DNA of 64,000 nucleotides from a phage. The notes beneath the pieces were generated by a model. The model made no database searches, was not told where the DNA came from, and worked only from the letters and a program-made list of their open reading frames with translations. The translations under genes were made by a program, and so were the position numbers. Below, piece after piece: positions 1,359 through 40,427 of the stretch (positions are counted from its first letter, which is position 1; each line of letters starts with the position of its first letter). The stretch lies in sequence record PV806337.1. One strand, 5' to 3'.

Positions 1359-3918
1359 CGAGAATCCTTCTCACGTTATCCAAATCTTTACATACAGCAA
1401 TAAACTTATCATCCTTGTATTTGCTATGATCTGGATGCTCTTTATCCATTGCAGCTAGTTTCTTATACTCGAATTCTGCATCAAGTAATACACCCTTGAC
1501 ATAACGAGTATATTCATCATCATCAATACAAGCGATTGATGGGTGCTGTTTCTTCATCTTACCACAAGAGTAGTCGCGAGAACCTCCAGCTTCAGAATCT
1601 GAATCAATACCAATCGGACAGCCAGGAATACTAATACCGCGGTCTTTCTGAATATTACGAATCAGGATTTCATTGTATTGGTCGATCAAATCCTCACGAA
1701 CAATAGCAACTACGGAGTCGTGAACCAGCATAACAATCTTCATCTCTTGTTCTAGGCCAAGAGAAATGATCTCATTATCTGCATCTACAGCACCTAAAAG
1801 GAGACTATCAGAAGAAGCAGACTGAATGATTGCGTTAAATCCAGAACGGATTTCTTCACCTTGAACACCACGGTCTTCGGAGTGGATATTATGCAGACGA
1901 CGTTTACGACCAAAGTGACTATAGATAAATCCATGATTCTTGATCTGATCATGGCACTTATCAATCCAACGCTTAAGCTGCGGGAACTGACCGAAGTAAG
2001 TTTCTATATACTCTTTAGCATCTGCAACCGTACACTCTACAAACGGTTCGCCTGTCTTAGCAGCCTGTTCCAGAAGAGCTTCGTTAACAGAATGAGCTAC
2101 TTTAGCTGGGCCAGAACCATACAGAATACCAAAGGTGATTGCTTTAGCTGCTTGACGCAGAGCTGGGAATAACTTTTTAACATCACGAGGCTCGCATTGG
2201 AGCTTAAATACCATGTGTGCGATGTTAGAGTGGAAGTCGGGGTATTTATCTGGTTCATTTCTCATGTTGATAAATACTTGTTGCATATTTCTATCACCAG
2301 ATAGAACAGCAGCATAATAAACTTCCGCAGTTGTTAAGTCCCATGCGATTACACGATACCCAGGAGGAGCTACTACACAACCCTTGATAATAGATTCATC
2401 ACGAGGTAACTGTTGCAAGTTCAGTTTACCGGAAGAACTCAGACGACCAGAAGTAGTCATATGTTCGTGGAAACCAGTACGAATGCAACCATCTGCATCA
2501 ATACTCAGAAGAATCTTCTCAACATAAGTAGAGATCAGCTTAGTTAGCTTACGAATCTCTAGTAGAGTCTTAGCAATTGGATGCTGCGTAGACAATTCGT
2601 TCAGAGCTTCTGCATCTGTAGAATCTGCTCCAGTATCCGTCAATTTACCTGTTGGAGTTAAGCCAACATAATCAAACAGAAGAACACGGAGTTGTTTAAC
2701 AGAGTTTGGGTTAAACGCTTCGTTCTGATCTTTCTCTAGCTGAACGACTTCTGGATAAGTATACAGTTTTTCACGAGCTTTATTCAGATTATGGGTTAAC
2801 TGGTACTGAGCTTCTTTTAAACGATCAATAGAAATAGGTACACCACGATCCTCAACACGCTGGAGAAATACACAACCAGGCATTAGGACATCATAATACA
2901 GACTACAAAGTTTTTCATTCTTCTCAATTTTTGGTAAGAAGAAGTTGTGCAAACGTATGGTAGCATCGGTATCTTTCGCAGCGTAAGGCCACATAATATC
3001 AAACGGAATTAAATCATAGGTGAAATCTTCTTTCTTGATTTTATGTGCTTTGCAGTAATCCTCTTTGAACTTATCTAGTTCGAAGTCATAGTCACCCATA
3101 TCGGTATACTTCATTGCTAGAGATTTCAAGCCATGAGTACCACGACGTTCATCTAGAACATAATGCTGCAACATAGTATCATGGAGCCTGCGTTCTTTAT
3201 GCGCTTTATCAAAAGTAAGTCCCAGATGGTACTTATAAAAGTGCATATCAAACTTCAGGTTGTGAAAAACAATAGTGTGGTTTTCACTATCCAGAATTTT
3301 CTGGAGATAATATACTGCAACCTCTGTGAGACAATCAGAATCGATATATACACCCTGATACTCTTGGTGAGACATAGAAACACCAAGCAGATAACCATCT
3401 CGACAGTATAGTGCTGAGGTTTCGGAGTCGAATGCGACAGGTCCGATAACCATATTATACACCATCTTGATATATTCTTCCGCCTCGTCAGGGTCAGTAA
3501 TAGGACGGTAATCACCAGCTTTTGCAATCTTCTCACGACCATTGATAATATCGTGGATATTCTCTACTGTTGCATCGAAAACTGGTTTCATTTCAGGCTT
3601 AAAGTGTAACTGGGCTGGGCTGATACTCGCAATCCAGTTAGCATATCCATTATACTCTACACGTTTACCGGTATAATCACCAATACCTTTCTTACCTGCA
3701 AAGTACAGGAAAGGTTCGGCACCTACTAGTATAACAAAATCATAATCATTAGGATCAAATGGGTTTTCTGGTGTTCCAATAGTAATGTGCTTTTTAAGCA
3801 AACGACCAGATAACTTCTCGTTACACATATGGAATACATCAACTTCCTCGCCGTATAGCTGGAAATGTTTATCATAACGAGTGTTATTTAGAGCTTTATC
3901 AACTACTGCGATTTTCAA
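1351..3918 (-). CDS. DNA polymerase, family A with 3'-5' exonuclease domain (855 aa)
   Basis: Exo motif VAFDSETSALY; motif B RQAAKAITFGILYGSG; motif C LVHDSVV; length equals the 855 aa I recall for T5 polymerase. Confidence 0.9.
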   Translation of the reverse strand: MKIAVVDKALNNTRYDKHFQLYGEEVDVFHMCNEKLSGRLLKKHITIGTPENPFDPNDYDFVILVGAEPFLYFAGKKGIGDYTGKRVEYNGYANWIASISPAQLHFKPEMKPVFDATVENIHDIINGREKIAKAGDYRPITDPDEAEEYIKMVYNMVIGPVAFDSETSALYCRDGYLLGVSMSHQEYQGVYIDSDCLTEVAVYYLQKILDSENHTIVFHNLKFDMHFYKYHLGLTFDKAHKERRLHDTMLQHYVLDERRGTHGLKSLAMKYTDMGDYDFELDKFKEDYCKAHKIKKEDFTYDLIPFDIMWPYAAKDTDATIRLHNFFLPKIEKNEKLCSLYYDVLMPGCVFLQRVEDRGVPISIDRLKEAQYQLTHNLNKAREKLYTYPEVVQLEKDQNEAFNPNSVKQLRVLLFDYVGLTPTGKLTDTGADSTDAEALNELSTQHPIAKTLLEIRKLTKLISTYVEKILLSIDADGCIRTGFHEHMTTSGRLSSSGKLNLQQLPRDESIIKGCVVAPPGYRVIAWDLTTAEVYYAAVLSGDRNMQQVFINMRNEPDKYPDFHSNIAHMVFKLQCEPRDVKKLFPALRQAAKAITFGILYGSGPAKVAHSVNEALLEQAAKTGEPFVECTVADAKEYIETYFGQFPQLKRWIDKCHDQIKNHGFIYSHFGRKRRLHNIHSEDRGVQGEEIRSGFNAIIQSASSDSLLLGAVDADNEIISLGLEQEMKIVMLVHDSVVAIVREDLIDQYNEILIRNIQKDRGISIPGCPIGIDSDSEAGGSRDYSCGKMKKQHPSIACIDDDEYTRYVKGVLLDAEFEYKKLAAMDKEHPDHSKYKDDKFIAVCKDLDNVRRILGA

Positions 3919-4011
3919 ATTTAATCTCCTCTTGGTAAGTAAGTATAACTTCAGTGTTTCTTCTCTAACTTACCAATATATTATATCAAAATATTGGGAT
4001 AATAGCAAATA

Positions 4012-4341
4012 CTATTTATAGGTGTGAAGTAATTTACGCATTTCATTGCGCTGCTTTTCTAGTACCCGAAATTCTTCATCTATACGCAGAAAAGCATCTA
4101 GCGCTTTCATAGATTGCTCAGTATTTTCTACAACAGCCCAATCATATGTTAGGTATACCTCTTGACCTGTATCTTTTACTTTAAAGTAAATATAAGATGC
4201 AGGTAATTTAGGATCACCAAATAAATGGAAATTCTTTCGTTTATTAAGGGACTCCAGTGTTGTAAACCGCTCTAGTTTAACCTCTTTGTGTGTTACACTA
4301 TCATACACTGGAACATCCGCATAAATATATACATATTCCAT
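4012..4341 (-). CDS. hypothetical protein (109 aa)
   Basis: Track ORF between polymerase and primase; no motif recognised. Confidence 0.5.
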   Translation of the reverse strand: MEYVYIYADVPVYDSVTHKEVKLERFTTLESLNKRKNFHLFGDPKLPASYIYFKVKDTGQEVYLTYDWAVVENTEQSMKALDAFLRIDEEFRVLEKQRNEMRKLLHTYK

Positions 4342-4367
4342 AGTAGCTCCTCAGTTATTTAGGACTA

Positions 4368-5258
4368 TTATACCAAATCTTTAAGCGATTCAGCAACTAA
4401 AATTTCAATACGTTTTGCTAACGTATCGACTTCTTCTTTATTTAAATCACCAGGATCCTTACCCTCTGGAAGTAAGAAGTTAGCAACTACAGGTGTTAAA
4501 CGTGTTTTTGTACGGATTAGTTTAGCCAGTGCTTGCGCAGCTTTATTACCAGAAGCATCATTATCTAGTAAGATAACAACAACTTTTACACCGGCAATAA
4601 TATAAGGACTGAACTTATCTGCAATGTTATCTGAAGTAAACTGATGTGTACCAAAGCAGCAAGAAGTATAGTCTATACCATTATCCTCTAGGTTCAGCAT
4701 ATCAAAGATGCCTTCAACTAGAATAAGAACTGGAGTATTATATCGTACAGGAAAAATTGGCGGTGAAACTTGTTTTGGTTTTACTAAGTATTTAGGAGGG
4801 GCAGAACTGTTTATAGAACGACCCAAAAATAGGATATTGCGTCCAACAGCATCTGTGATTGGGAATACAATTCTGCCTTCCCAGTCTGCTTGGTGTTGGA
4901 AAGCAAAATATTTCTTCAAGGTCTTAGAACTTATACCTCGGAAATCACCTTCGAAAAGGCAAGCAGATTCAGGAATTGCAAGATTCGTTGATCCATTCCT
5001 AATCTCTGAAATCTTTTTACGTACTTGCGATAGCCTTGGGGACTGTCGGTACTGAGTCTCATTAAAATAATGGTAAATGCTCGGTATACCTTTACCGAAG
5101 CCACAACTCAAGCAGTGCATAATACCTGTTTCAGGGTCAATACGCAAACTTGGGTGTTTATCGTCATGATCTGGATTGAGACAACAGATGAGGATGTCCC
5201 CACCTGTGTCTTTATATTCAATGCCTTTCAGATCAAGTAGTTCTGTTATTCTACTCAT
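4368..5258 (-). CDS. DNA primase (DnaG-like: CHC2 zinc finger + Toprim)
   Basis: Zinc finger CCLNPDHDDKHPS...HCLSCG; Toprim Glu (LILVEGIFD) and DxD (ILLDNDASG). Confidence 0.8.
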   Translation of the reverse strand: MSRITELLDLKGIEYKDTGGDILICCLNPDHDDKHPSLRIDPETGIMHCLSCGFGKGIPSIYHYFNETQYRQSPRLSQVRKKISEIRNGSTNLAIPESACLFEGDFRGISSKTLKKYFAFQHQADWEGRIVFPITDAVGRNILFLGRSINSSAPPKYLVKPKQVSPPIFPVRYNTPVLILVEGIFDMLNLEDNGIDYTSCCFGTHQFTSDNIADKFSPYIIAGVKVVVILLDNDASGNKAAQALAKLIRTKTRLTPVVANFLLPEGKDPGDLNKEEVDTLAKRIEILVAESLKDLV

Positions 5259-6778
5259 ATATCGCTGGCCTGTTCACCTGTTGAATTTTCAGTTTTGTCT
5301 TTCTTAGCACGTTTAGGTTGAGCCGGCTTATCCTTCTCAATAGGGATAACGAACTCAGCTTCCATTTGAGATATATCTTCCATTGCTAGATTGGTAGTGT
5401 TATCCATCCGCAGGGTTTCCCAGTTCATTTTAGGCATAAACTTCACGCTATCAGAAGAACGAGTCTTAACGAAGTCAAACATAATAGCACCTTGACCATT
5501 ATCAGCTTTTGCAGCATTAAGATTAGCAGCCATGTCTGCGGAATCAAGAATCCCCTTTGACATACGTGTTCTACCATCTTGATCGATCTGGTAAGGAGCT
5601 ACGCCAGCCACGTTATGTTTCTGGCAGATGGATTTGAAAGACGAGCTAACAACCATCTGTTCTTTCCAGTCATACATATCAATGGTTTTAGAATCTGGAA
5701 GTCGGGTTTGGTTAATATAGTCCAGTAAAGCTACTGTAACTTTATCACCATATCTAGCAACTAATTTATTTAATTCTACGTCAACTGTTGTAATGGACAG
5801 TTCAGGGTCATAAACGATAATCATAGGAGTATGTAGTTCATACCCTTCTATTAGCTTACTCTCCATATCGTAGAAATCACTCATCTTAGCCATTGTATAC
5901 TGTTTAACGAAGTTATCGAAAAGCTCTTCACCACCGTTGAACATTCTAGCTCTAGTTCTGGCTAATCTCAATAGAGCTGCACCTTCTAGAGTATTATTAC
6001 GCATTGCTAGTGCTGATACCCCGGCTAACATGGCTAGATTACGTCTAAATACTTCATGTTCTTTCATCTCAATTGAGAAGTATGGAGCAATATCTCCATT
6101 CAAATATTGCTGAACCTGTATGTTTGAACAGATAATGGATTTACCAGTACCACGCCAACCACCAAGCAGTAACGTTTCTGTGCGAGCTAAACCAATTTGA
6201 GCGTCGAACTCATTACAAATACCAAGAGCGATTAAGTTCAGTTTGGTATCTTCTTCTCTCTGGAAAATACGCATGTTATCTGCGTTGAATACTTTTCCAG
6301 TATTCGTTACTTTCTCTTCTAATTTTAAGTGAAGGGAGGCAACTCGGTTGAGAATTTCTCCCTGATCCAGCATTGTTAAATCTTGAAGCACGTCTGTTTC
6401 TAGAAGCTTCAGGAATAAATCCTGTGTATATTCAGCCTCTAGGACTTCAAGTGCCTGTTCCATGCTCACTTCTGGAATTTGAGTGTTAGCTAAGACGACT
6501 AGAGCTTGAGAAAGGCGGGCGTTCCTATTAGCTTCAAGCATAAGTGCGTCAATGGACGGCATTGTGTTATATTTTTTATAATAATTCTGGACGGCTTGGT
6601 AAATTGAGGAGAAAGCGTCATTAAAATGATCTTTATGCAGTTTTGAGAATGTTTCCAATGCTATTTGCTTCTGTTCGGAAGCTAGAAGCATCTTCAACAC
6701 TACAGCTTGCACGTTAAACAAGGTCATTCTCCTTTGCACGCTTTCGTGCCTTCTAAATGCAAAAAGGGGAAGGAGCAT
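5255..6778 (-). CDS. replicative DNA helicase (DnaB/RecA-fold, 507 aa)
   Basis: Walker A GGWRGTGKS; directly upstream of primase in same operon; strong RBS (AAGGGGAGGGGG) before ATG 6778. Confidence 0.7.
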   Translation of the reverse strand: MLLPLFAFRRHESVQRRMTLFNVQAVVLKMLLASEQKQIALETFSKLHKDHFNDAFSSIYQAVQNYYKKYNTMPSIDALMLEANRNARLSQALVVLANTQIPEVSMEQALEVLEAEYTQDLFLKLLETDVLQDLTMLDQGEILNRVASLHLKLEEKVTNTGKVFNADNMRIFQREEDTKLNLIALGICNEFDAQIGLARTETLLLGGWRGTGKSIICSNIQVQQYLNGDIAPYFSIEMKEHEVFRRNLAMLAGVSALAMRNNTLEGAALLRLARTRARMFNGGEELFDNFVKQYTMAKMSDFYDMESKLIEGYELHTPMIIVYDPELSITTVDVELNKLVARYGDKVTVALLDYINQTRLPDSKTIDMYDWKEQMVVSSSFKSICQKHNVAGVAPYQIDQDGRTRMSKGILDSADMAANLNAAKADNGQGAIMFDFVKTRSSDSVKFMPKMNWETLRMDNTTNLAMEDISQMEAEFVIPIEKDKPAQPKRAKKDKTENSTGEQASDI

Positions 6779-6800
6779 AGCCCCCTCCCCTTAGGTTTAA
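6764..6800 (-). promoter_or_regulatory. hairpin plus T-run spanning RBS and start codon of the DnaB-like helicase gene
   Basis: Minus-strand AAGGGGAGGGGG-CTATGCT-CCTTCCCCTT then TTTTT; start codon lies in the loop. Confidence 0.45.
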
Positions 6801-6809
6801 TTTACCAGA

Positions 6810-7577
6810 TTATTCAGCAGCCGCAGCTTTTGCATCCAGTTTAGCACGCTTAGCGGCACCATCATAGTCCTTAGCAACCAGACCACGACGAGACAGCATA
6901 GATTTAACACCGCGCTCAGACTTACCAGTTTTCTCAGCGATCTCAGCAACAGTCATGTTAACCAGATCCAGACCTTCTAACAGATCTTCACGAGTTTTAG
7001 CACTTGAGGTTTCCTGTACCGGCATAGCAGCGATACGACCTTCACGAAGCAGGCTCAGAGCTTTACCGCGGATCTGCTTAATATTACGACCGAAGTGAGC
7101 AGCGATAGCTTCAATAGTAGCACCAGCAACAACCTGATTAACAAAATCAGTTTCTTCATCTGGAGTGAAGGAACGAACAGCAGCAGCTTTTTCGGTTGGC
7201 TTAACAGAAGCGGTCATTTCCAGACTCAGAATCTTACCCTGTACCTGCTTAGCACCGAACTGACCACCAGCCACAGCAGCAGCGATTTCAGCATAGGTAT
7301 ACTGACCAGCATGAGCGTTCAGGAAATCAACCAGTTCAGCTTCCTGCTCAGGAGTCCACGGGGATTTCTGTACTTCGTTAGCTTTCTGTACTTCAAAACC
7401 TTCTTTACGCAGTTTAGAGCCAACAGAGCGAGCGGTAACATCTTTGCCAGTTTCAGCGGCCAGTTCAGCAGCGATAGCAGCTACTTGTTCTTGAGAGATT
7501 ACAGCAACACCCAGAGCAGTGGCTTTTGCTTTCAGAGACTCGGTTACACCTTCTACGTTCCAGTTCAGTTTAGACAT
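6810..7577 (-). CDS. DNA-binding protein with three internal HTH-like repeats (T5 D5-like)
   Basis: Three repeats (YAEIAAAVAGG..., IEAIAAHFGRNIKQIRGKALSL, VAEIAEKTGKSERGVKSMLSRRGL); Ala-rich; sits in replication module. Confidence 0.6.
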   Translation of the reverse strand: MSKLNWNVEGVTESLKAKATALGVAVISQEQVAAIAAELAAETGKDVTARSVGSKLRKEGFEVQKANEVQKSPWTPEQEAELVDFLNAHAGQYTYAEIAAAVAGGQFGAKQVQGKILSLEMTASVKPTEKAAAVRSFTPDEETDFVNQVVAGATIEAIAAHFGRNIKQIRGKALSLLREGRIAAMPVQETSSAKTREDLLEGLDLVNMTVAEIAEKTGKSERGVKSMLSRRGLVAKDYDGAAKRAKLDAKAAAAE

Positions 7578-33406: not shown

Positions 33407-33577
33407 ATGAAATCAGTTGTAATTATTGGTGTTAACACTCGCGGTATTCGTACTACGAAAACTGTTAAAACTTCTAACGTTGCTGAAATAACTACGAACC
33501 CTAAAAAGTTTGATTTCGCCAAAGTCTCAGCAGTTATGACAGAACAATCTTTTAACCAAGCATTGGGGATGAAATAA
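33407..33577 (+). CDS. hypothetical small protein (56 aa)
   Basis: Not in track (<60 aa); T5-type promoter and RBS GAGAGGAAG upstream; stop overlaps next start. Confidence 0.4.
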   Translation: MKSVVIIGVNTRGIRTTKTVKTSNVAEITTNPKKFDFAKVSAVMTEQSFNQALGMK

Positions 33578-34011
33578 TGGGTGAAAATATTCTAATGACC
33601 CTTCGTGGACTACTTAGTCTAGCACGTACTCACGGTGATAAGGAACGGGCACTTAATCTTCAGACCATGATTGGTGATCTGCAACGTATTGATAAAGACA
33701 TTGTTACTCGAACCGAGTTCGTAGCCTATCTGAAAGCTCAGATTAAGGCTCTAGAAAATGCAAAACAACGCGCTATTAAAGTTGGTATGGAAGTTCCTAC
33801 TGATGTAGACTATGAGCAACTGCTTTATTCCATGCTGCAAGAGTATCAGCCAAGTCAACTGACTGAGGTTCAGATTCGTGAGTATTTTGCAGAACTGGTT
33901 AAATTAAACCCAGGTATTACCAAAGCTCTATTAATGAAAACTATTAAGGCAGAATTTCCCGGACGTTATGACGGTAAAACAACTGCTTTGATTGCTAGTG
34001 AATTTTTCTAA
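33577..34011 (+). CDS. hypothetical protein (144 aa)
   Basis: Track ORF. Confidence 0.55.
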   Translation: MGENILMTLRGLLSLARTHGDKERALNLQTMIGDLQRIDKDIVTRTEFVAYLKAQIKALENAKQRAIKVGMEVPTDVDYEQLLYSMLQEYQPSQLTEVQIREYFAELVKLNPGITKALLMKTIKAEFPGRYDGKTTALIASEFF

Positions 34012-34019
34012 AAATTCAT

Positions 34020-34048
34020 TTGCTAAATGCTTATAAATTCTGTATAAT
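34020..34048 (+). promoter_or_regulatory. T5-type promoter driving an about 800-nt non-coding transcript ending in tRNA-Arg
   Basis: -35 TTGCTA, 17 bp, -10 TATAAT; no ORF with RBS until 34955. Confidence 0.7.
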
Positions 34049-34270
34049 ATATTCATAAATTAGGGAACAGCGAGCCGATTACGCTGAGTGCAGAATCCCA
34101 ACCGGAGCGCATTGAATAGAGTCGGTGGGTTAGTTGTAAAACTAGTACACAGGGGGCGGCAATCCCGGTTAGTGGCTAGAACGTGTAAAATGAGGCGTCT
34201 GAAACCTCTCCCCTAAACTCTTCTCTGATTTATAAATAGTGGGGTGTGGAAATCACTTATGTAGTAACAC

Positions 34271-34342
34271 TGCCGTCCTAGTATAATTGGTATTATCAAG
34301 CCGTAACTGGTGGAAGATGTAGGTTCGAATCCTACGGTCGGT
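34271..34342 (+). ncRNA. degenerate tRNA-like fragment (T-arm and acceptor only)
   Basis: T-arm GTAGG-TTCGAAT-CCTAC and 6/7-bp acceptor GCCGTCC/GGTCGGT, no convincing anticodon arm, no CCA. Confidence 0.3.
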
Positions 34343-34845
34343 AAGAACTGGATAACTGATGCTTTTAACATAAAAGCTTCCGAGGTTAGTTGCGCACTGC
34401 CTAAACCACGCGGTAGTTGGTTCCAGACTAACCAACCAGTCTGCTGAATAGTTTTATTACGATTTAACTATGTCCAGGCTAAAGAAGAACTTTAGAAGGT
34501 ATTCTAGGATAGTGAAGTTCTTTCTCCATATCGGAGTAGTTTTTCAAGCTATCCACAAAGTGGGAAATGCTGACATGAGAGATGTCACTAATGGTGCACA
34601 ATAGCACAGGTAATTCGCGATAACTCCTGTTGAGTAGCAGCAAAAGGTGGGAAGTCATGACCCCAAGCCTAACCGAGTCCTCAATATACCGCAGGACATA
34701 ACCACTAAGTCACCCTGACTTAAACTGGAAAATAATAGACGTTACTGTATTTTGTCTTGAAATACTTAATGAGTGAGACTTATGACTCTCCCGGTATCGT
34801 CTGTATTTTTAAGAGTTTTTACGAGAGTTCTTAAAAATACTTAAA

Positions 34846-34920
34846 CGGGGTGTAGTCTAAGGGAGAGGCAGGAGTCTTCTAAATTCCTTTATGCAGGTTC
34901 GAATCCTGTCACCTCGGCCA
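34846..34920 (+). tRNA. tRNA-Arg (anticodon TCT)
   Basis: Acceptor CGGGGTG/CACCTCG, anticodon stem GGAGT/ATTCC with loop CTTCTAA, T-arm GCAGG-TTCGAAT-CCTGT, encoded CCA. Confidence 0.8.
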
Positions 34921-34954
34921 ATTTTATTAACTGTAACTAAAACAAAGGAAATAT

Positions 34955-35902
34955 ATGTTTGCTACTAAAAATATGAAAGAACTGACTTCTGAGCAGAAAG
35001 TAATTCGTACTATTAAACGTTGGGGTATTGGTGCTGTAGTTGGTTTAGCAGGTTTAATCCTAGCTTTTAATTCATATACTATTGTTTCTGATGGTACGGT
35101 TAAAACCCAAACATTCCTGGGTAAAGTAGACCCTAATCCAGTATTGCCGGGCTTCCATCTTGTAAACCCGTTTGCATCTTTCGATACTTTTAGTACAAAA
35201 GATATTGCTGTAAAATTAGATAAACTTCAGGTTCCTAGCCAGGATAAGTTTAAATCCACTGTTGACCTGACTGTTATGTTGCAGTTTGATGGTTCTAAAG
35301 CACCGATTAACCGTATTAACGCAGGTACTCAGGATCAGGCACTAGACAAGTATGTAACTGAAAAATTACTGTCTACTATTCGTGAGTTTGGTAAGTCTGT
35401 ACCTAAAGCACAAGATTTATTTGATGCTAAAATTCAGGCTCAATTGCAAACTGCAATTCAACAGGAAGTTGAAGAGTATGCGCGCCCATATGGTTACACA
35501 GTTAAGCAGGTATTCCTTCAGGATATTACCTTGCCGCCAGTAATCATGGAACAGGTACAGAATACCAAAGTTCGTGAAGAGCAAGTTAATGCTGCGAAAG
35601 CTGAACTTGCTCGCGTTGAACAGGAAGCACAGCAAAAAGTTAAACAAGCAGAAGCAGATCGTGAAGCTCGTAACAACCAAGCTATTGCTAATGAACGTGA
35701 CGCAGATGCTAAACTGTACGCAGCTAAGAAAGAAGCTGAAGCTAACGCCGCATTGCAACGTACCATTACTCCTGAAATGATTCGTTGGAAACAACTGGAA
35801 GTTGAAATGATCCGTGCTCAGAAGTATCAAGGTGGTGTACCTCAGACTGTGGTAGGTACTGGCTACGATGGTCAAATGATCATGGATATGCGTAACAAGT
35901 AA
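34955..35902 (+). CDS. SPFH/band-7 (stomatin/prohibitin-like) membrane protein
   Basis: N-terminal TM (WGIGAVVGLAGLILAF), SPFH-like core, long Ala/Glu/Gln coiled coil. Confidence 0.65.
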   Translation: MFATKNMKELTSEQKVIRTIKRWGIGAVVGLAGLILAFNSYTIVSDGTVKTQTFLGKVDPNPVLPGFHLVNPFASFDTFSTKDIAVKLDKLQVPSQDKFKSTVDLTVMLQFDGSKAPINRINAGTQDQALDKYVTEKLLSTIREFGKSVPKAQDLFDAKIQAQLQTAIQQEVEEYARPYGYTVKQVFLQDITLPPVIMEQVQNTKVREEQVNAAKAELARVEQEAQQKVKQAEADREARNNQAIANERDADAKLYAAKKEAEANAALQRTITPEMIRWKQLEVEMIRAQKYQGGVPQTVVGTGYDGQMIMDMRNK

Positions 35903-35925: not shown

Positions 35926-35960
35926 AAGCCCGCGTTTCCTACGAGAGCGCGGGCTTTTCT
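35926..35960 (+). terminator. rho-independent terminator after SPFH gene
   Basis: AAGCCCGCG ... CGCGGGCTT followed by TTTCTGTATTT. Confidence 0.7.
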
Positions 35961-38550: not shown

Positions 38551-38628
38551 GGTTCTCAAGCTCATATGGTATGAGCACCCGGCTCATAACCGGAAGGTAC
38601 GTAGGTTCGAATCCTCGGGGAGCCACCA
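38551..38628 (+). tRNA. tRNA with CAT anticodon (Met/fMet/Ile2), non-canonical T-stem
   Basis: Acceptor GGTTCTC/GGGAGCC with G-U pairs; anticodon loop CTCATAA; T-loop TTCGAAT with bulged stem; CCA. Confidence 0.55.
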
Positions 38629-40352: not shown

Positions 40353-40427
40353 GCACCTTTAGCTGAGATGGATTAGCGCTTGCCTGAAGAGCTTGAGAGG
40401 TTGGATCGTTACCAACGGGGTGCTCCA
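40353..40427 (+). tRNA. tRNA-like, possibly Phe (anticodon GAA), non-canonical T-loop
   Basis: Acceptor GCACCTT/GGGGTGC, D-arm GCTG...TAGC, anticodon loop CTGAAGA with mismatched stem, T-arm GTTGG-ATCGTTA-CCAAC, CCA. Confidence 0.45.

What the first reader, a model, noticed from the sequence alone, without database searches (positions are those of the whole stretch)
34049..34845. About 800-nt promoter-driven non-coding transcript upstream of tRNA-Arg
A canonical T5 early promoter at 34020-34048 is followed by about 800 nt without any RBS-preceded ORF, ending in tRNA-Arg(TCT). The stretch contains a tRNA-like fragment (34271-34342) and several stable hairpins such as GTTGGTT-CCAGACT-AACCAAC. 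A strong promoter committed to non-coding sequence suggests one or more stable small RNAs.
Basis: seen in the sequence. Interest (0 to 1): 0.55.

Follow-up and report, generated by a model that had tools for sequence, protein, structure and literature searches.

The report
T5 rnaX: large structured phage RNA
This stretch is the already annotated rnaX gene of T5-like phages; comparing relatives shows that about 600 of its bases fold into one large, conserved non-coding RNA with a tRNA-shaped arm, and its job is still unknown.

Summary
A T5-type early promoter (34020-34048) is followed by about 800 nt with no conserved ORF. That stretch holds a tRNA-like element (34272-34343) and several hairpins, and it ends at tRNA-Arg(UCU) (34846-34920).

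It is not new. GenBank records of phage 5, T5, BF23 and DT571/2 annotate this interval as misc_RNA 'rnaX / RNAX, stable RNA with unknown functions', downstream of 'promoter P16-17'.

- Only 34236-34845 is conserved as a unit. It is present in every Demerecviridae lineage sampled (19 representatives, 51-94% identical), including Klebsiella, Enterobacter, Erwinia and Pectobacterium phages.
- On structure-blind alignments, 81 proposed base pairs are 87% paired. Forty of them show compensatory changes, against 20.5±2.6 in shuffles and 18 or fewer in slid controls.
- The tRNA-like arm sits on top of a 12-bp helix and is exchangeable. It looks like a proper tRNA-Pro in Erwinia phage KEY and is replaced by a plain hairpin in EPS7.
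- An invariant loop carries the palindrome GUCAUGAC.
- No Rfam family other than tRNA matches, so GOLLD and ROOL do not.
- The 5' 180 nt are a variable leader.

Most likely this is one large ornate stable RNA, not several small RNAs. Its context resembles GOLLD and ROOL.

The parts
34020..34048 (+). Early promoter P16-17: -35 TTGCTA at 34020-34025, 17-nt spacer, -10 TATAAT at 34043-34048. The start site is probably A34055 (inferred from memory of T5 PN25-type promoters). GenBank starts rnaX at a position equal to window 34061.
   Evidence: Consensus scan. Annotated 'promoter P16-17' in AJ604531 and AY543070. Conserved in all relatives.
34055..34235 (+). Variable 5' leader of the rnaX transcript. 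The first 35 nt or so (with hairpin CAGCG/CGCUG, 34068-34086) and the last 50 nt or so (34184-34234) recur in most lineages. The middle does not.
   Evidence: T5 lacks 34067-34215. An HNH endonuclease ORF takes the leader's place in mar003J3, MET_P1_137_112, bux and KFSSM. Fold z-score is -0.40.
34236..34845 (+). Conserved RNAX core, about 610 nt here and 566-891 nt in relatives. It runs from AUAGUGGGGUG to the terminal hairpin plus UUAAA.
   Evidence: The nhmmer profile finds the whole unit in every T5-like locus and in Pectobacterium phage DU_PP_V (E = 1.2e-36). Alignments A2 and A5. Covariation.
34237..34242 (+). P1 5' strand (UAGUGG). It pairs with 34702-34707 (CCACUA) and closes the large domain.
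   Evidence: GUGG/CCAC is invariant in Markadamsvirinae, Sugarlandvirus and KEY. DU_PP_V has ACGG/CCGU, two compensatory changes. Support comes from one lineage only.
34252..34265 (+). P2 5' strand. It pairs with 34347-34360. This 12-bp helix, with conserved C·C and G·G mismatches, carries the tRNA-like arm.
   Evidence: 12 pairs, 99% paired, 7 with changes on both sides.
34272..34343 (+). Embedded tRNA-shaped arm. The acceptor, D and T arms are intact. The 'anticodon' arm is a 3-bp stem with a 6-nt loop (GUAACU). No CCA is encoded. It joins P2 through the near-invariant strands AACACU (5') and AAGA (3').
   Evidence: Rfam tRNA 35.5 bits; no ARAGORN call. T-stem, D-stem and anticodon-stem covariation. 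Scores 50.2 bits with a UGG anticodon loop in Erwinia phage KEY, and is replaced by a non-tRNA hairpin in EPS7, INF11 and PSa2.
34347..34360 (+). P2 3' strand (ACUG-G-AUAA-C-UGAU).
34361..34377 (+). P3 hairpin (GCUUUU-AACAU-AAAAGC).
   Evidence: Variants are GCUUC/GAAGC, GCUUAU/AUAAGC, GGUUC/GAACC and GCGUA/UACGC. 3 of 6 pairs are compensatory.
34416..34436 (+). It is a lineage-specific module, and its loop UUCCAG is complementary to CUGGAA at 34725-34730.
   Evidence: KKP_3711 has the compensatory GUUGAUU/AAUCAAC. The pseudoknot test was inconclusive.
34571..34587 (+). M1 hairpin (UGACAU-GAGAG-AUGUCA).
   Evidence: T5 has UCACG/CGUGA, DT571/2 has UGGCAU/AUGCCA, L023 has CACAUG/CAUGUG. 3 of 6 pairs are compensatory.
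34607..34629 (+). M3 hairpin (CAGG ... CCUG) with the conserved loop UAAUUCGCGAUAACU.
   Evidence: KFSSM has CAGU/ACUG. Support is weaker: 70% paired on the MAFFT alignment.
34650..34662 (+). Motif GGAGUCAUGACC: 11 of its 12 positions are invariant and the second is at least 90% conserved (the window itself reads GGAAGUCAUGACC, an A at that position). GG/CC can close an 8-9-nt loop (AGUCAUGA in relatives) that holds the palindrome GUCAUGAC.
   Evidence: 11 positions invariant and 1 nearly invariant in all 17-19 representatives, including DU_PP_V. GTCATGAC occurs once in the 64-kb window.
34677..34697 (+). Ha hairpin (GUCCU ... AGGAC).
   Evidence: All 5 pairs show changes on both sides.
34702..34707 (+). 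P1 3' strand, inside the near-invariant AUAACCAC.
34708..34734 (+). Hb hairpin AGUCA-CCC-UGACU, then the near-invariant single strand UAAACUGGAARAUA.
   Evidence: Hb never varies, so it is neither supported nor contradicted by covariation.
34737..34802 (+). Three-way junction: closing helix AGACG/CGUCU, hairpin GUAUUU/AAAUAC, conserved CUUAAU, and a third hairpin.
   Evidence: The same architecture comes out of separate MFE folds of 16 lineages whose helix sequences differ completely: CAGUAG/CUACUG, GACGG/CCGUC, GACAG/CUGUC, GACUG/CAGUC, GACUAG/CUAGUC.
34803..34840 (+). Terminal 17-bp AU-rich hairpin with a UACG loop, 5 nt upstream of tRNA-Arg.
   Evidence: 17 pairs, 96.5% paired, 7 with changes on both sides. 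In relatives that carry an extra ORF, it lies upstream of that ORF.
34846..34920 (+). tRNA-Arg(UCU), co-oriented with rnaX. Its 5' end defines the annotated 3' end of RNAX.

Best explanation
The interval is rnaX, the largest of the 'stable RNAs with unknown functions' that the T5 sequencing laboratory annotated in the tRNA island of T5-like phages.

Shown here:
- It acts as RNA read from the + strand, not as protein or as a DNA site.
- The selected unit is a core of about 610 nt (34236-34845).
- The core is built from at least 14 helices, with a three-way junction and a 17-bp terminal hairpin. It is probably closed by a long-range helix (P1).
- A tRNA-shaped arm is grafted on top of a 12-bp helix through two conserved joining strands.
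- That arm is an exchangeable peripheral module.
- Discrete expansion modules come and go between lineages, while a set of single-stranded motifs stays invariant.

Inferred:
- The early promoter P16-17 transcribes leader, core and tRNA-Arg as one RNA.
- RNase P cutting at the 5' end of tRNA-Arg leaves the core with the terminal hairpin as a 3' exonuclease block. In relatives with an intervening ORF, cleavage in or next to the long hairpin would do the same job. This would make the RNA stable.

Most likely mode of action (inference, about 0.3 on its own): a self-folding scaffold RNA that acts in trans during early infection. This is the same lifestyle as the large ornate phage RNAs GOLLD and ROOL: large size, phage-encoded, beside tRNA islands, sometimes with a covalently linked tRNA. 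The invariant palindromic loop AGUCAUGA would be a candidate self-association (kissing) site.
For: Identity with annotated rnaX:
- The window is 99.4% identical to AJ604531 and 100% identical to several T5-like genomes.
- AJ604531, AY543070, NC_042564 and NC_047749 annotate misc_RNA rnaX between promoter P16-17 and tRNA-Arg.
- The same record lists seven other stable or tRNA-like RNAs in the island.

Non-coding: no conserved ORF.

Conservation as a bounded unit: full-length profile hits in all lineages, and 19 representatives at 51-94% identity.

Structure under selection, on structure-blind MAFFT alignments:
- 5' domain: 37 pairs, 90.2% paired, 21 compensatory against 10.1±1.9 in shuffles, 0 of 500 shuffles as high, slid controls 7 or fewer.
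- Full length: 81 pairs, 87.0% paired, 40 compensatory against 20.5±2.6, 0 of 500, slid controls 18 or fewer.
- The three-way junction is recovered independently in 16 lineages with unrelated helix sequences.

Strand: 103 G·U cells against 40 A·C cells in the proposed pairs, which favours the + strand.

Exchangeable tRNA arm.

Invariant motifs and the palindrome.

Against: - I examined no expression, end-mapping or stability data. 'Stable' is the depositors' annotation.
- The processing steps are inferred from anatomy.
- P1 rests on compensatory changes in a single lineage.
- Several middle-domain helices are only 59-70% paired on the MAFFT alignment, partly because of misalignment.
- The shuffle control does not correct for phylogeny. 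The slid control does.
- There is no sequence or structure similarity to GOLLD or ROOL even at E up to 10, so the analogy rests on context and size only.
- The palindromic loop could just as well bind a dimeric protein.
- The T5 tRNA region is a known deletion hotspot (PMC12483538), so the RNA may be dispensable in the laboratory.
Confidence: 0.55

Rival explanations
1. tRNA mimic or decoy. The active part is the tRNA-shaped arm. It is released by RNase P and 3' processing, or displayed on the scaffold, and it titrates a host tRNA-binding factor such as an anticodon nuclease or another tRNA-targeting defence, or a modification enzyme. The rest of the RNA serves as carrier and stabiliser.
For: The arm keeps tRNA-like acceptor, D and T arms with covariation, while its anticodon arm is non-decoding: a 6-nt loop here and a 3-5-nt loop in DU_PP_V. 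It scores above the Rfam tRNA gathering score. T5 tRNAs are known to counter a tRNA-cleaving defence, PARIS (title and abstract of PMC11464382). The depositors annotate three other 'tRNA-like RNA with unknown functions' in the same island.
Against: EPS7, INF11 and PSa2 have replaced the tRNA arm with a plain hairpin yet keep the remaining 550 nt or so. The arm therefore cannot be the sole function. The strongest invariants lie outside it.
Confidence: 0.15
2. Cis-acting leader or processing platform. The structured RNA exists to control maturation, stability or expression of what lies downstream: tRNA-Arg, the SPFH/band-7 gene and, in relatives, a 153-169 aa ORF. It could work by recruiting RNase III, E or P, and it has no function in trans.
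For: It always lies directly upstream of tRNA-Arg(UCU), or of an ORF followed by tRNA-Arg. The long, perfect AU-rich terminal hairpin resembles a double-strand-specific processing site and sits at the junction with the downstream unit.
Against: About 600 nt with 14 or more helices and many invariant unpaired motifs is far more than known processing signals need. The downstream unit differs between lineages while the core is kept. The depositors describe it as a stable RNA.
Confidence: 0.15
3. Evolutionary debris. The region is made of decayed tRNA genes and scars of homing-endonuclease traffic in a recombination hotspot, transcribed only because it lies between a promoter and a tRNA.
For: HNH endonuclease genes and other ORFs insert at both ends of the region in relatives. 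The leader is mosaic. The tRNA island is a deletion hotspot.
Against: Compensatory base changes are about twice the shuffled and slid controls. Motifs stay invariant across lineages that are only 51-60% identical overall. The unit has the same boundaries everywhere. The leader is not an HNH pseudogene.
Confidence: 0.05
4. Small protein-coding genes, or a DNA-level element such as a protein-binding site or an origin, rather than an RNA.
For: Mechanical ORFs of 42-60 aa exist on both strands. GTCATGAC is a DNA palindrome.
Against: No ORF is conserved in frame, position or length. Conservation follows RNA pairing, including a G·U excess on the + strand. The palindrome occurs once in 64 kb.
Confidence: 0.04

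Closest known systems
rnaX / RNAX of bacteriophages T5, BF23, 5 and DT571/2 (GenBank misc_RNA, 'stable RNA with unknown functions')
   Same: It is the same locus and the same sequence: 97.9-99.4% identity to BF23 and phage 5, and 93% over 79% of the query to T5. It has the same flanks, promoter P16-17 upstream and tRNA-Arg(UCU) downstream.
   Different: Nothing differs at the level of identity. The annotation gives only the coordinates from promoter to tRNA. It says nothing about structure, the conserved core, the embedded tRNA-like arm or family distribution. Annotated lengths differ (785, 719 and 636 nt) because of the variable leader and an internal insertion in T5.
[quoted passage not shown]
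   Same: Both are large (over 600 nt), elaborately folded non-coding RNAs encoded by phages next to tRNA islands. Both have a conserved part and a variable part. tRNAs are sometimes covalently embedded in GOLLD's linker region. Function is unknown for both (PMC12286853; PMC5737381).
   Different: There is no match to the Rfam model, even at E up to 10 in the window or E up to 1 in six diverse homologues. The hosts differ: Enterobacterales lytic Demerecviridae here. In RNAX the variable part is the leader and the middle modules, and the tRNA-like arm is mostly non-decoding. Oligomerisation is untested.
ROOL RNA (Rumen-Originating, Ornate, Large)
   Same: The size is similar (581 nt on average against about 610 nt). 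Both have multi-stem junctions, a phage or prophage origin and proximity to tRNAs, and may be co-transcribed with them. Function is unknown for both.
   Different: There is no match to the Rfam model. RNAX has many invariant nucleotides, whereas ROOL is reported to have few highly conserved ones. The taxonomic range seen for RNAX is narrow, one phage family.
Other stable and tRNA-like RNAs of the T5 tRNA island (RNA I, RNAIII, RNAIV, RNA 2H, RNA1, RNA2, RNA3)
   Same: They lie in the same island, come from the same depositors, carry the same 'unknown functions' label, and some are tRNA-like.
   Different: They are 73-172 nt long, while RNAX is 4-10 times longer and has a multi-domain fold. I did not analyse them here.
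Canonical tRNA (Rfam RF00005), for the embedded arm only
   Same: It has acceptor, D and T arms with the GGTTCGAATCC T-loop, and scores above the gathering score.
   Different: The anticodon arm has a 3-bp stem and a 6-nt loop. There are G1·U72 and U5·U68 irregularities and no encoded CCA. ARAGORN rejects it. It is internal to a larger helix-closed RNA.

Membership tests
T5-group rnaX (GenBank misc_RNA) | Lies between promoter P16-17 and tRNA-Arg(UCU), downstream of the T5.081 homologue and upstream of the SPFH/band-7 gene (T5.080) | tested here: met
T5-group rnaX (GenBank misc_RNA) | Nucleotide identity to the annotated rnaX sequences | tested here: met
   99.4% to AJ604531 over 961 nt. 97.9% to BF23 and 93% over 79% of the query to T5.
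T5-group rnaX (GenBank misc_RNA) | Accumulates as a stable RNA in infected cells | not testable with these tools
   Only the depositors' note 'stable RNA with unknown functions' is available. The primary papers are not in the held library.
GOLLD RNA (Rfam) | Match to the family covariance model | tested here: not met
   No hit at E up to 10 in window 33950-35000, and none at E up to 1 in six diverse homologues.
GOLLD RNA (Rfam) | Large ornate fold, phage-encoded, adjacent to tRNAs, tRNA sometimes embedded | tested here: met
   Core of about 610 nt with at least 14 helices. Sits at the head of the tRNA island. Carries an embedded tRNA-like arm. The definition of these traits comes from PMC12286853.
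GOLLD / ROOL | Homo-oligomeric RNA-only assembly (nanocage) | not testable with these tools
   The only lead is the invariant palindromic loop GUCAUGAC.
ROOL RNA (Rfam) | Match to the family covariance model | tested here: not met
tRNA (embedded arm 34272-34343) | Cloverleaf scoring at or above the Rfam gathering score | tested here: met
   35.5 bits against 29. Homologues range from no hit (EPS7) and 26.6 bits (FZ41) up to 50.2 bits (KEY).
tRNA (embedded arm 34272-34343) | 5-bp anticodon stem with a 7-nt loop presenting an anticodon | tested here: not met
   The stem has 3 bp and the loop GUAACU has 6 nt. There is no ARAGORN call. Only Erwinia phage KEY has a canonical loop, CUUGGGU.
tmRNA | tRNA-like domain plus tag reading frame, detected by ARAGORN | tested here: not met
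   ARAGORN reports no tmRNA in the window, and Rfam reports none.
Any other curated RNA family (ribozymes, introns, RNase P, 6S, Y-RNA-like and others) | Match to any of the 4227 Rfam 15 models | tested here: not met
   Only tRNA hits pass. The best other hit is Hrs13 on the minus strand, 19.2 bits against a gathering score of 52.

The most novel reading that the evidence does not exclude
RNAX would be a third, independent class of giant ornate phage RNA alongside GOLLD and ROOL. On this reading it is a self-assembling, RNA-only particle, or a scaffold for a host or phage factor. It would use the invariant palindromic loop AGUCAUGA for homo-oligomerisation and display a tRNA-shaped arm. Because it sits in T5, a classical and genetically tractable E. 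coli phage, it would give the first convenient genetic system for asking what such RNAs do.
Probability: 0.2. Interest if true: 0.8.

Novelty: already known. Interest (0 to 1): 0.5.

Why it matters
The gene has sat in GenBank for about twenty years labelled 'stable RNA with unknown functions'. It is absent from Rfam, and I found no paper on it in the held library.

The comparison made here shows that it is not a spacer. It is a structure-constrained RNA of about 600 nt, kept across Demerecviridae that infect Escherichia, Salmonella, Klebsiella, Enterobacter, Erwinia and Pectobacterium.

Large ornate RNAs of phages (GOLLD, ROOL) are an open problem: their structures are solved and their function is unknown, and they occur mostly in organisms that are hard to manipulate. 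An analogue in T5 could be deleted, mutated and probed with standard E. coli tools, and public total-RNA data from T5 infections already exist.

If instead it proves to be a tRNA-mimic carrier, it bears on the current work on phage tRNAs as counter-defence.

Tried and rejected
1. Known RNA family. Rfam at gathering thresholds over the whole window, then at E up to 10 over the region, then at E up to 1 over six diverse homologues, gave only tRNA hits.
2. Protein coding. ORF lists and a cross-lineage ORF map showed nothing conserved.
3. Leader as a degraded HNH endonuclease gene or another ORF. tblastn of the HNH protein and of the 153-169 aa proteins against all leaders gave no credible match.
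4. tRNA-like arm as a recent copy of one of the phage's own tRNAs, for example tRNA-Pro. The best global identity to any of 23 tRNAs is 0.65-0.69, with no preferred parent.
5. Pseudoknot between the hairpin loop UUCCAG (34421-34426) and CUGGAA (34725-34730). KEY (UUCCAA/UUGGAA) and DU_PP_V (UCUCAG/CUGAGA) show matching changes. However, the partner is not at a homologous place in all lineages and is missing in KFSSM and L051. The test was inconclusive.
6. Wider distribution. Exact-motif scans of IMG/VR, JGI/ENA metagenomes and GTDB genomes returned only T5-like relatives plus chance matches that failed the profile check.
7. GTCATGAC as a repeated DNA site. There is one copy in 64 kb against 0.64 expected.
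8. Literature on RNAX or T5 stable RNAs. Nothing usable is in the held library, and the Glukhov 2018 deletion paper is not held.
9. The upstream ORF as a tRNA-binding YqeY protein. Pfam gives only 18 bits against a cut-off of 27, so it is not established.
10. A complete secondary structure of the middle domain. RNAalifold on the gapped alignment gave a plausible but unreliable model, because modules are swapped between lineages. I report only helices that I could check.
Full report
**What the window is.** The region is 100% identical over 961 nt to several T5-like coliphages (T5_ev212, EC148, ECOP18 and others) and 99.4% identical to the 'Bacteriophage 5 tRNA gene region' record AJ604531. ARAGORN finds 21 tRNA genes downstream. 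The first is tRNA-Arg(tct) at 34846-34920.

**Checking the observation.**
- The promoter TTGCTA-17-TATAAT lies at 34020-34048. In AJ604531 and in the T5 genome AY543070 it is annotated as 'promoter P16-17'.
- Real genes end at 34011 (a 144-aa ORF with a weak, sub-threshold YqeY match) and start again at 34955 (a 315-aa SPFH/band-7 protein).
- In between, the longest + strand ORFs are 42-45 aa.
- Rfam's tRNA model matches 34272-34343 at 35.5 bits, above the gathering score of 29. ARAGORN does not call it.
- The quoted hairpin is at 34416-34436.

**It is already annotated.**
- AJ604531 carries a misc_RNA feature, gene rnaX, product RNAX, note 'stable RNA with unknown functions'. It spans what corresponds to window 34061-34845 and is followed directly by tRNA-Arg.
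- The same feature is present in T5 (719 nt), DT571/2 (636 nt) and BF23.
- The phage 5 record annotates seven further small 'stable' or 'tRNA-like' RNAs of 73-172 nt in the island. RNAX is by far the largest.
- I found no paper on RNAX in the held library.

**How the region varies among relatives.**
- Distant blastn finds the region in 526 phage records.
- A block map against 16 fetched loci and leader comparisons show that the first 180 nt or so after the promoter are mosaic.
- T5 and DT571/2 lack 34067-34215.
- EPS7-like phages have a different and longer middle.
- In mar003J3, MET_P1_137_112, bux and KFSSM, an HNH endonuclease gene (Pfam HNH_3, 1.2e-11) sits between the promoter and position 34235.
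- Only the first 35 nt or so of the transcript and the last 50 nt or so of the leader recur. The leader does not fold better than shuffles (z = -0.40).
- In many relatives an ORF of 153-169 aa with no Pfam match lies between the end of the RNA and tRNA-Arg.

**A bounded conserved core.**
- From AUAGUGGGGUG (34236) to the terminal hairpin (34843), the sequence aligns in every lineage.
- A profile built from the alignment recovers the whole unit (566-891 nt) in all T5-like loci. It also recovers it in Klebsiella Sugarlandvirus, Enterobacter phage KKP_3711, Erwinia phage KEY and, at E = 1.2e-36, the Mccorquodalevirinae phage DU_PP_V, which blastn had linked only through the terminal hairpin.
- After removing near-duplicates there are 19 representatives at 51-94% pairwise identity.
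- Invariant or near-invariant motifs include GGAGUCAUGACC, AAACC, AUAACCAC, UAAACUGGAARAUA, GUGGGAAA and GGAUAACU.
- Between them, discrete modules are present, absent or exchanged.

**Evidence for RNA structure.**
- All counts were made on MAFFT alignments that know nothing about structure.
- 5' domain (16 sequences): 37 pairs are 90.2% paired, and 21 show changes on both sides against 10.1±1.9 in shuffles. None of 500 shuffles reached that number, and slid controls gave 7 or fewer.
- Helix P2 (34252-34265 with 34347-34360) is 99% paired, with 7 of 12 pairs compensatory.
- Full length (17 sequences including DU_PP_V): 81 pairs in 14 helices are 87.0% paired. Forty are compensatory against 20.5±2.6 in shuffles (0 of 500), and slid controls gave 18 or fewer.
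- The terminal hairpin (17 bp, UACG loop) is 96.5% paired with 7 compensatory pairs. All five pairs of hairpin Ha covary.
- The region 34737-34802 cannot be aligned by sequence. Separate MFE folds of 16 lineages nevertheless give the same three-way junction followed by the terminal hairpin, with unrelated helix sequences.
- A long-range helix P1 (GUGG 34239-34242 with CCAC 34702-34705) is invariant, except in DU_PP_V, which has ACGG/CCGU. That is suggestive, but it is a single lineage.
- G·U cells outnumber A·C cells 103 to 40 in the proposed pairs. This fits the + strand, the strand of the promoter and of the tRNAs.
- The core folds better than shuffles (z = -2.03, 0 of 20).
- No ORF is conserved.

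**The tRNA-like arm.**
- It is mounted on P2 through two near-invariant joining strands: AACACU on the 5' side, and AAGA (after the arm's last base, U or A) on the 3' side.
- Its T stem (GUAGG/CCUAC, GUGGG/CCCAC, GCAGG/CCUGC), its D stem (GUAU/UUAU against GGCU/AGCC in KFSSM) and its short anticodon stem all covary.
- The anticodon arm is not that of a decoder in this window (3 bp plus a 6-nt loop) nor in DU_PP_V.
- In Erwinia phage KEY it is a regular cloverleaf with a CUUGGGU loop (tRNA-Pro-like, 50.2 bits).
- In Sugarland-type phages the arm is extended to 86 nt.
- In EPS7, INF11 and PSa2 the whole arm is replaced by a 42-nt hairpin, while the closing pairs and both joining strands are kept.
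- It is therefore an exchangeable peripheral module, probably descended from a real tRNA. It is not the reason the other 550 nt or so are conserved.
- It is no closer to any one of the phage's own tRNAs than to the others.

**The palindromic loop.** In GGAGUCAUGACC, the two G and two C can pair around AGUCAUGA. The 8-nt palindrome GUCAUGAC is unchanged in all representatives and occurs once in the 64-kb window. A self-complementary loop is what a kissing homodimer would need. It could equally be a protein site. This is a lead, not a result.

**Comparison with known families.**
- No Rfam 15 family other than tRNA matches the window region at E up to 10, or six diverse homologues at E up to 1. 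RNAX is therefore not a member of GOLLD, ROOL or any curated ribozyme, intron or sRNA family.
- In lifestyle it resembles GOLLD and ROOL. Both are large ornate RNAs of phages and prophages, often near tRNA islands. Both have unknown function, tRNAs are sometimes embedded in GOLLD's linker, and both assemble into RNA-only cages (PMC12286853; PMC5737381).
- That resemblance is one of context and size. Oligomerisation of RNAX is untested.

**Distribution.** Exact-motif scans of IMG/VR, metagenome and GTDB collections returned only T5-like relatives. Other matches failed the profile check. As far as these scans can see, the family is confined to Demerecviridae of Enterobacterales.

**Verdict.**
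- The better description is one large structured RNA core plus a variable leader, co-transcribed with tRNA-Arg, and not a set of small RNAs.
- My estimates are about 0.9 that it is a functional structured RNA and about 0.6 that its ends are made by the tRNA-processing machinery with the terminal hairpin as stabiliser.
- I put about 0.3 on it working as a GOLLD/ROOL-like scaffold or self-assembling RNA. Rivals are a tRNA-mimic decoy (0.15), a cis-acting processing platform (0.15), debris (0.05) and a coding or DNA element (0.04).
- Novelty of the finding as stated: already known.
- Interest is moderate (0.5). An unstudied ornate RNA of about 600 nt in a model coliphage is a good experimental handle on an open question.

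Noticed in passing
window 38551-38625 and 40353-40424: Rfam's tRNA model scores above its gathering score (40.3 and 31.5 bits) at two places that ARAGORN does not call. By position, the phage 5 record annotates tRNA-Ile(AUG) and tRNA-Phe in the corresponding places, so ARAGORN probably misses real tRNAs here.
   Followed up: partly
L093 (AJ604531) 2980-6935, corresponding to the window's tRNA island downstream of 38000: The depositors annotate seven more 'stable RNA' or 'tRNA-like RNA with unknown functions' features of 73-172 nt: RNAIII, RNA I, RNA1, RNA 2H, RNAIV, RNA2 and RNA3. None was examined here. None gave an Rfam hit other than tRNA in the whole-window scan.
   Followed up: no
L005 517-999, L006 517-999, L013 717-1199, L014 1017-1499: A 160-aa HNH endonuclease gene (Pfam HNH_3) is inserted exactly between promoter P16-17 and the first base of the conserved RNAX core in several Epseptimavirus phages. 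The leader/core boundary at window 34235/34236 is therefore also a mobile-element insertion point.
   Followed up: partly
L006 1587-2096, L007 1968-2477, L011 2252-2728, L043 2635-3096: An ORF of 153-169 aa with no Pfam match sits between the RNAX terminal hairpin and tRNA-Arg in many relatives. It is absent from the window.
   Followed up: partly
L003 (T5, AY543070) 1711-1774: T5 proper carries an internal insertion of 60-80 nt in RNAX that repeats the motif AGUCACCUUGAC(U/A)UAAACUGGAA. It has two copies of hairpin Hb and of the following invariant strand.
   Followed up: no
window 35926-35956: A strong terminator-like hairpin (12 bp, 7 G-C pairs, followed by a T run) lies after the SPFH gene. 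T5 and phage 5 annotate it as a bidirectional rho-independent terminator. It probably ends the P16-17 transcription unit.
   Followed up: no
window 33577-34011: The ORF upstream of the promoter is labelled 'tRNA amidotransferase' or 'YqeY domain' in several records. It reaches only 18 bits against Pfam YqeY (cut-off 27), so the label is weakly founded. The gene is absent upstream of RNAX in the Klebsiella phages.
   Followed up: partly
search hits OR847704.1 ('Listeria phage LM 4-11-1', 1903 nt) and records named Campylobacter phage: Short records attributed to Listeria or Campylobacter phages are 97-98% identical to T5-type RNAX. This is most likely contamination or mislabelling of T5-like sequence.
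   Followed up: no
KEY and DU_PP_V show matching changes, but the partner is not positionally conserved. It is a possible tertiary contact and remains unresolved.
   Followed up: partly
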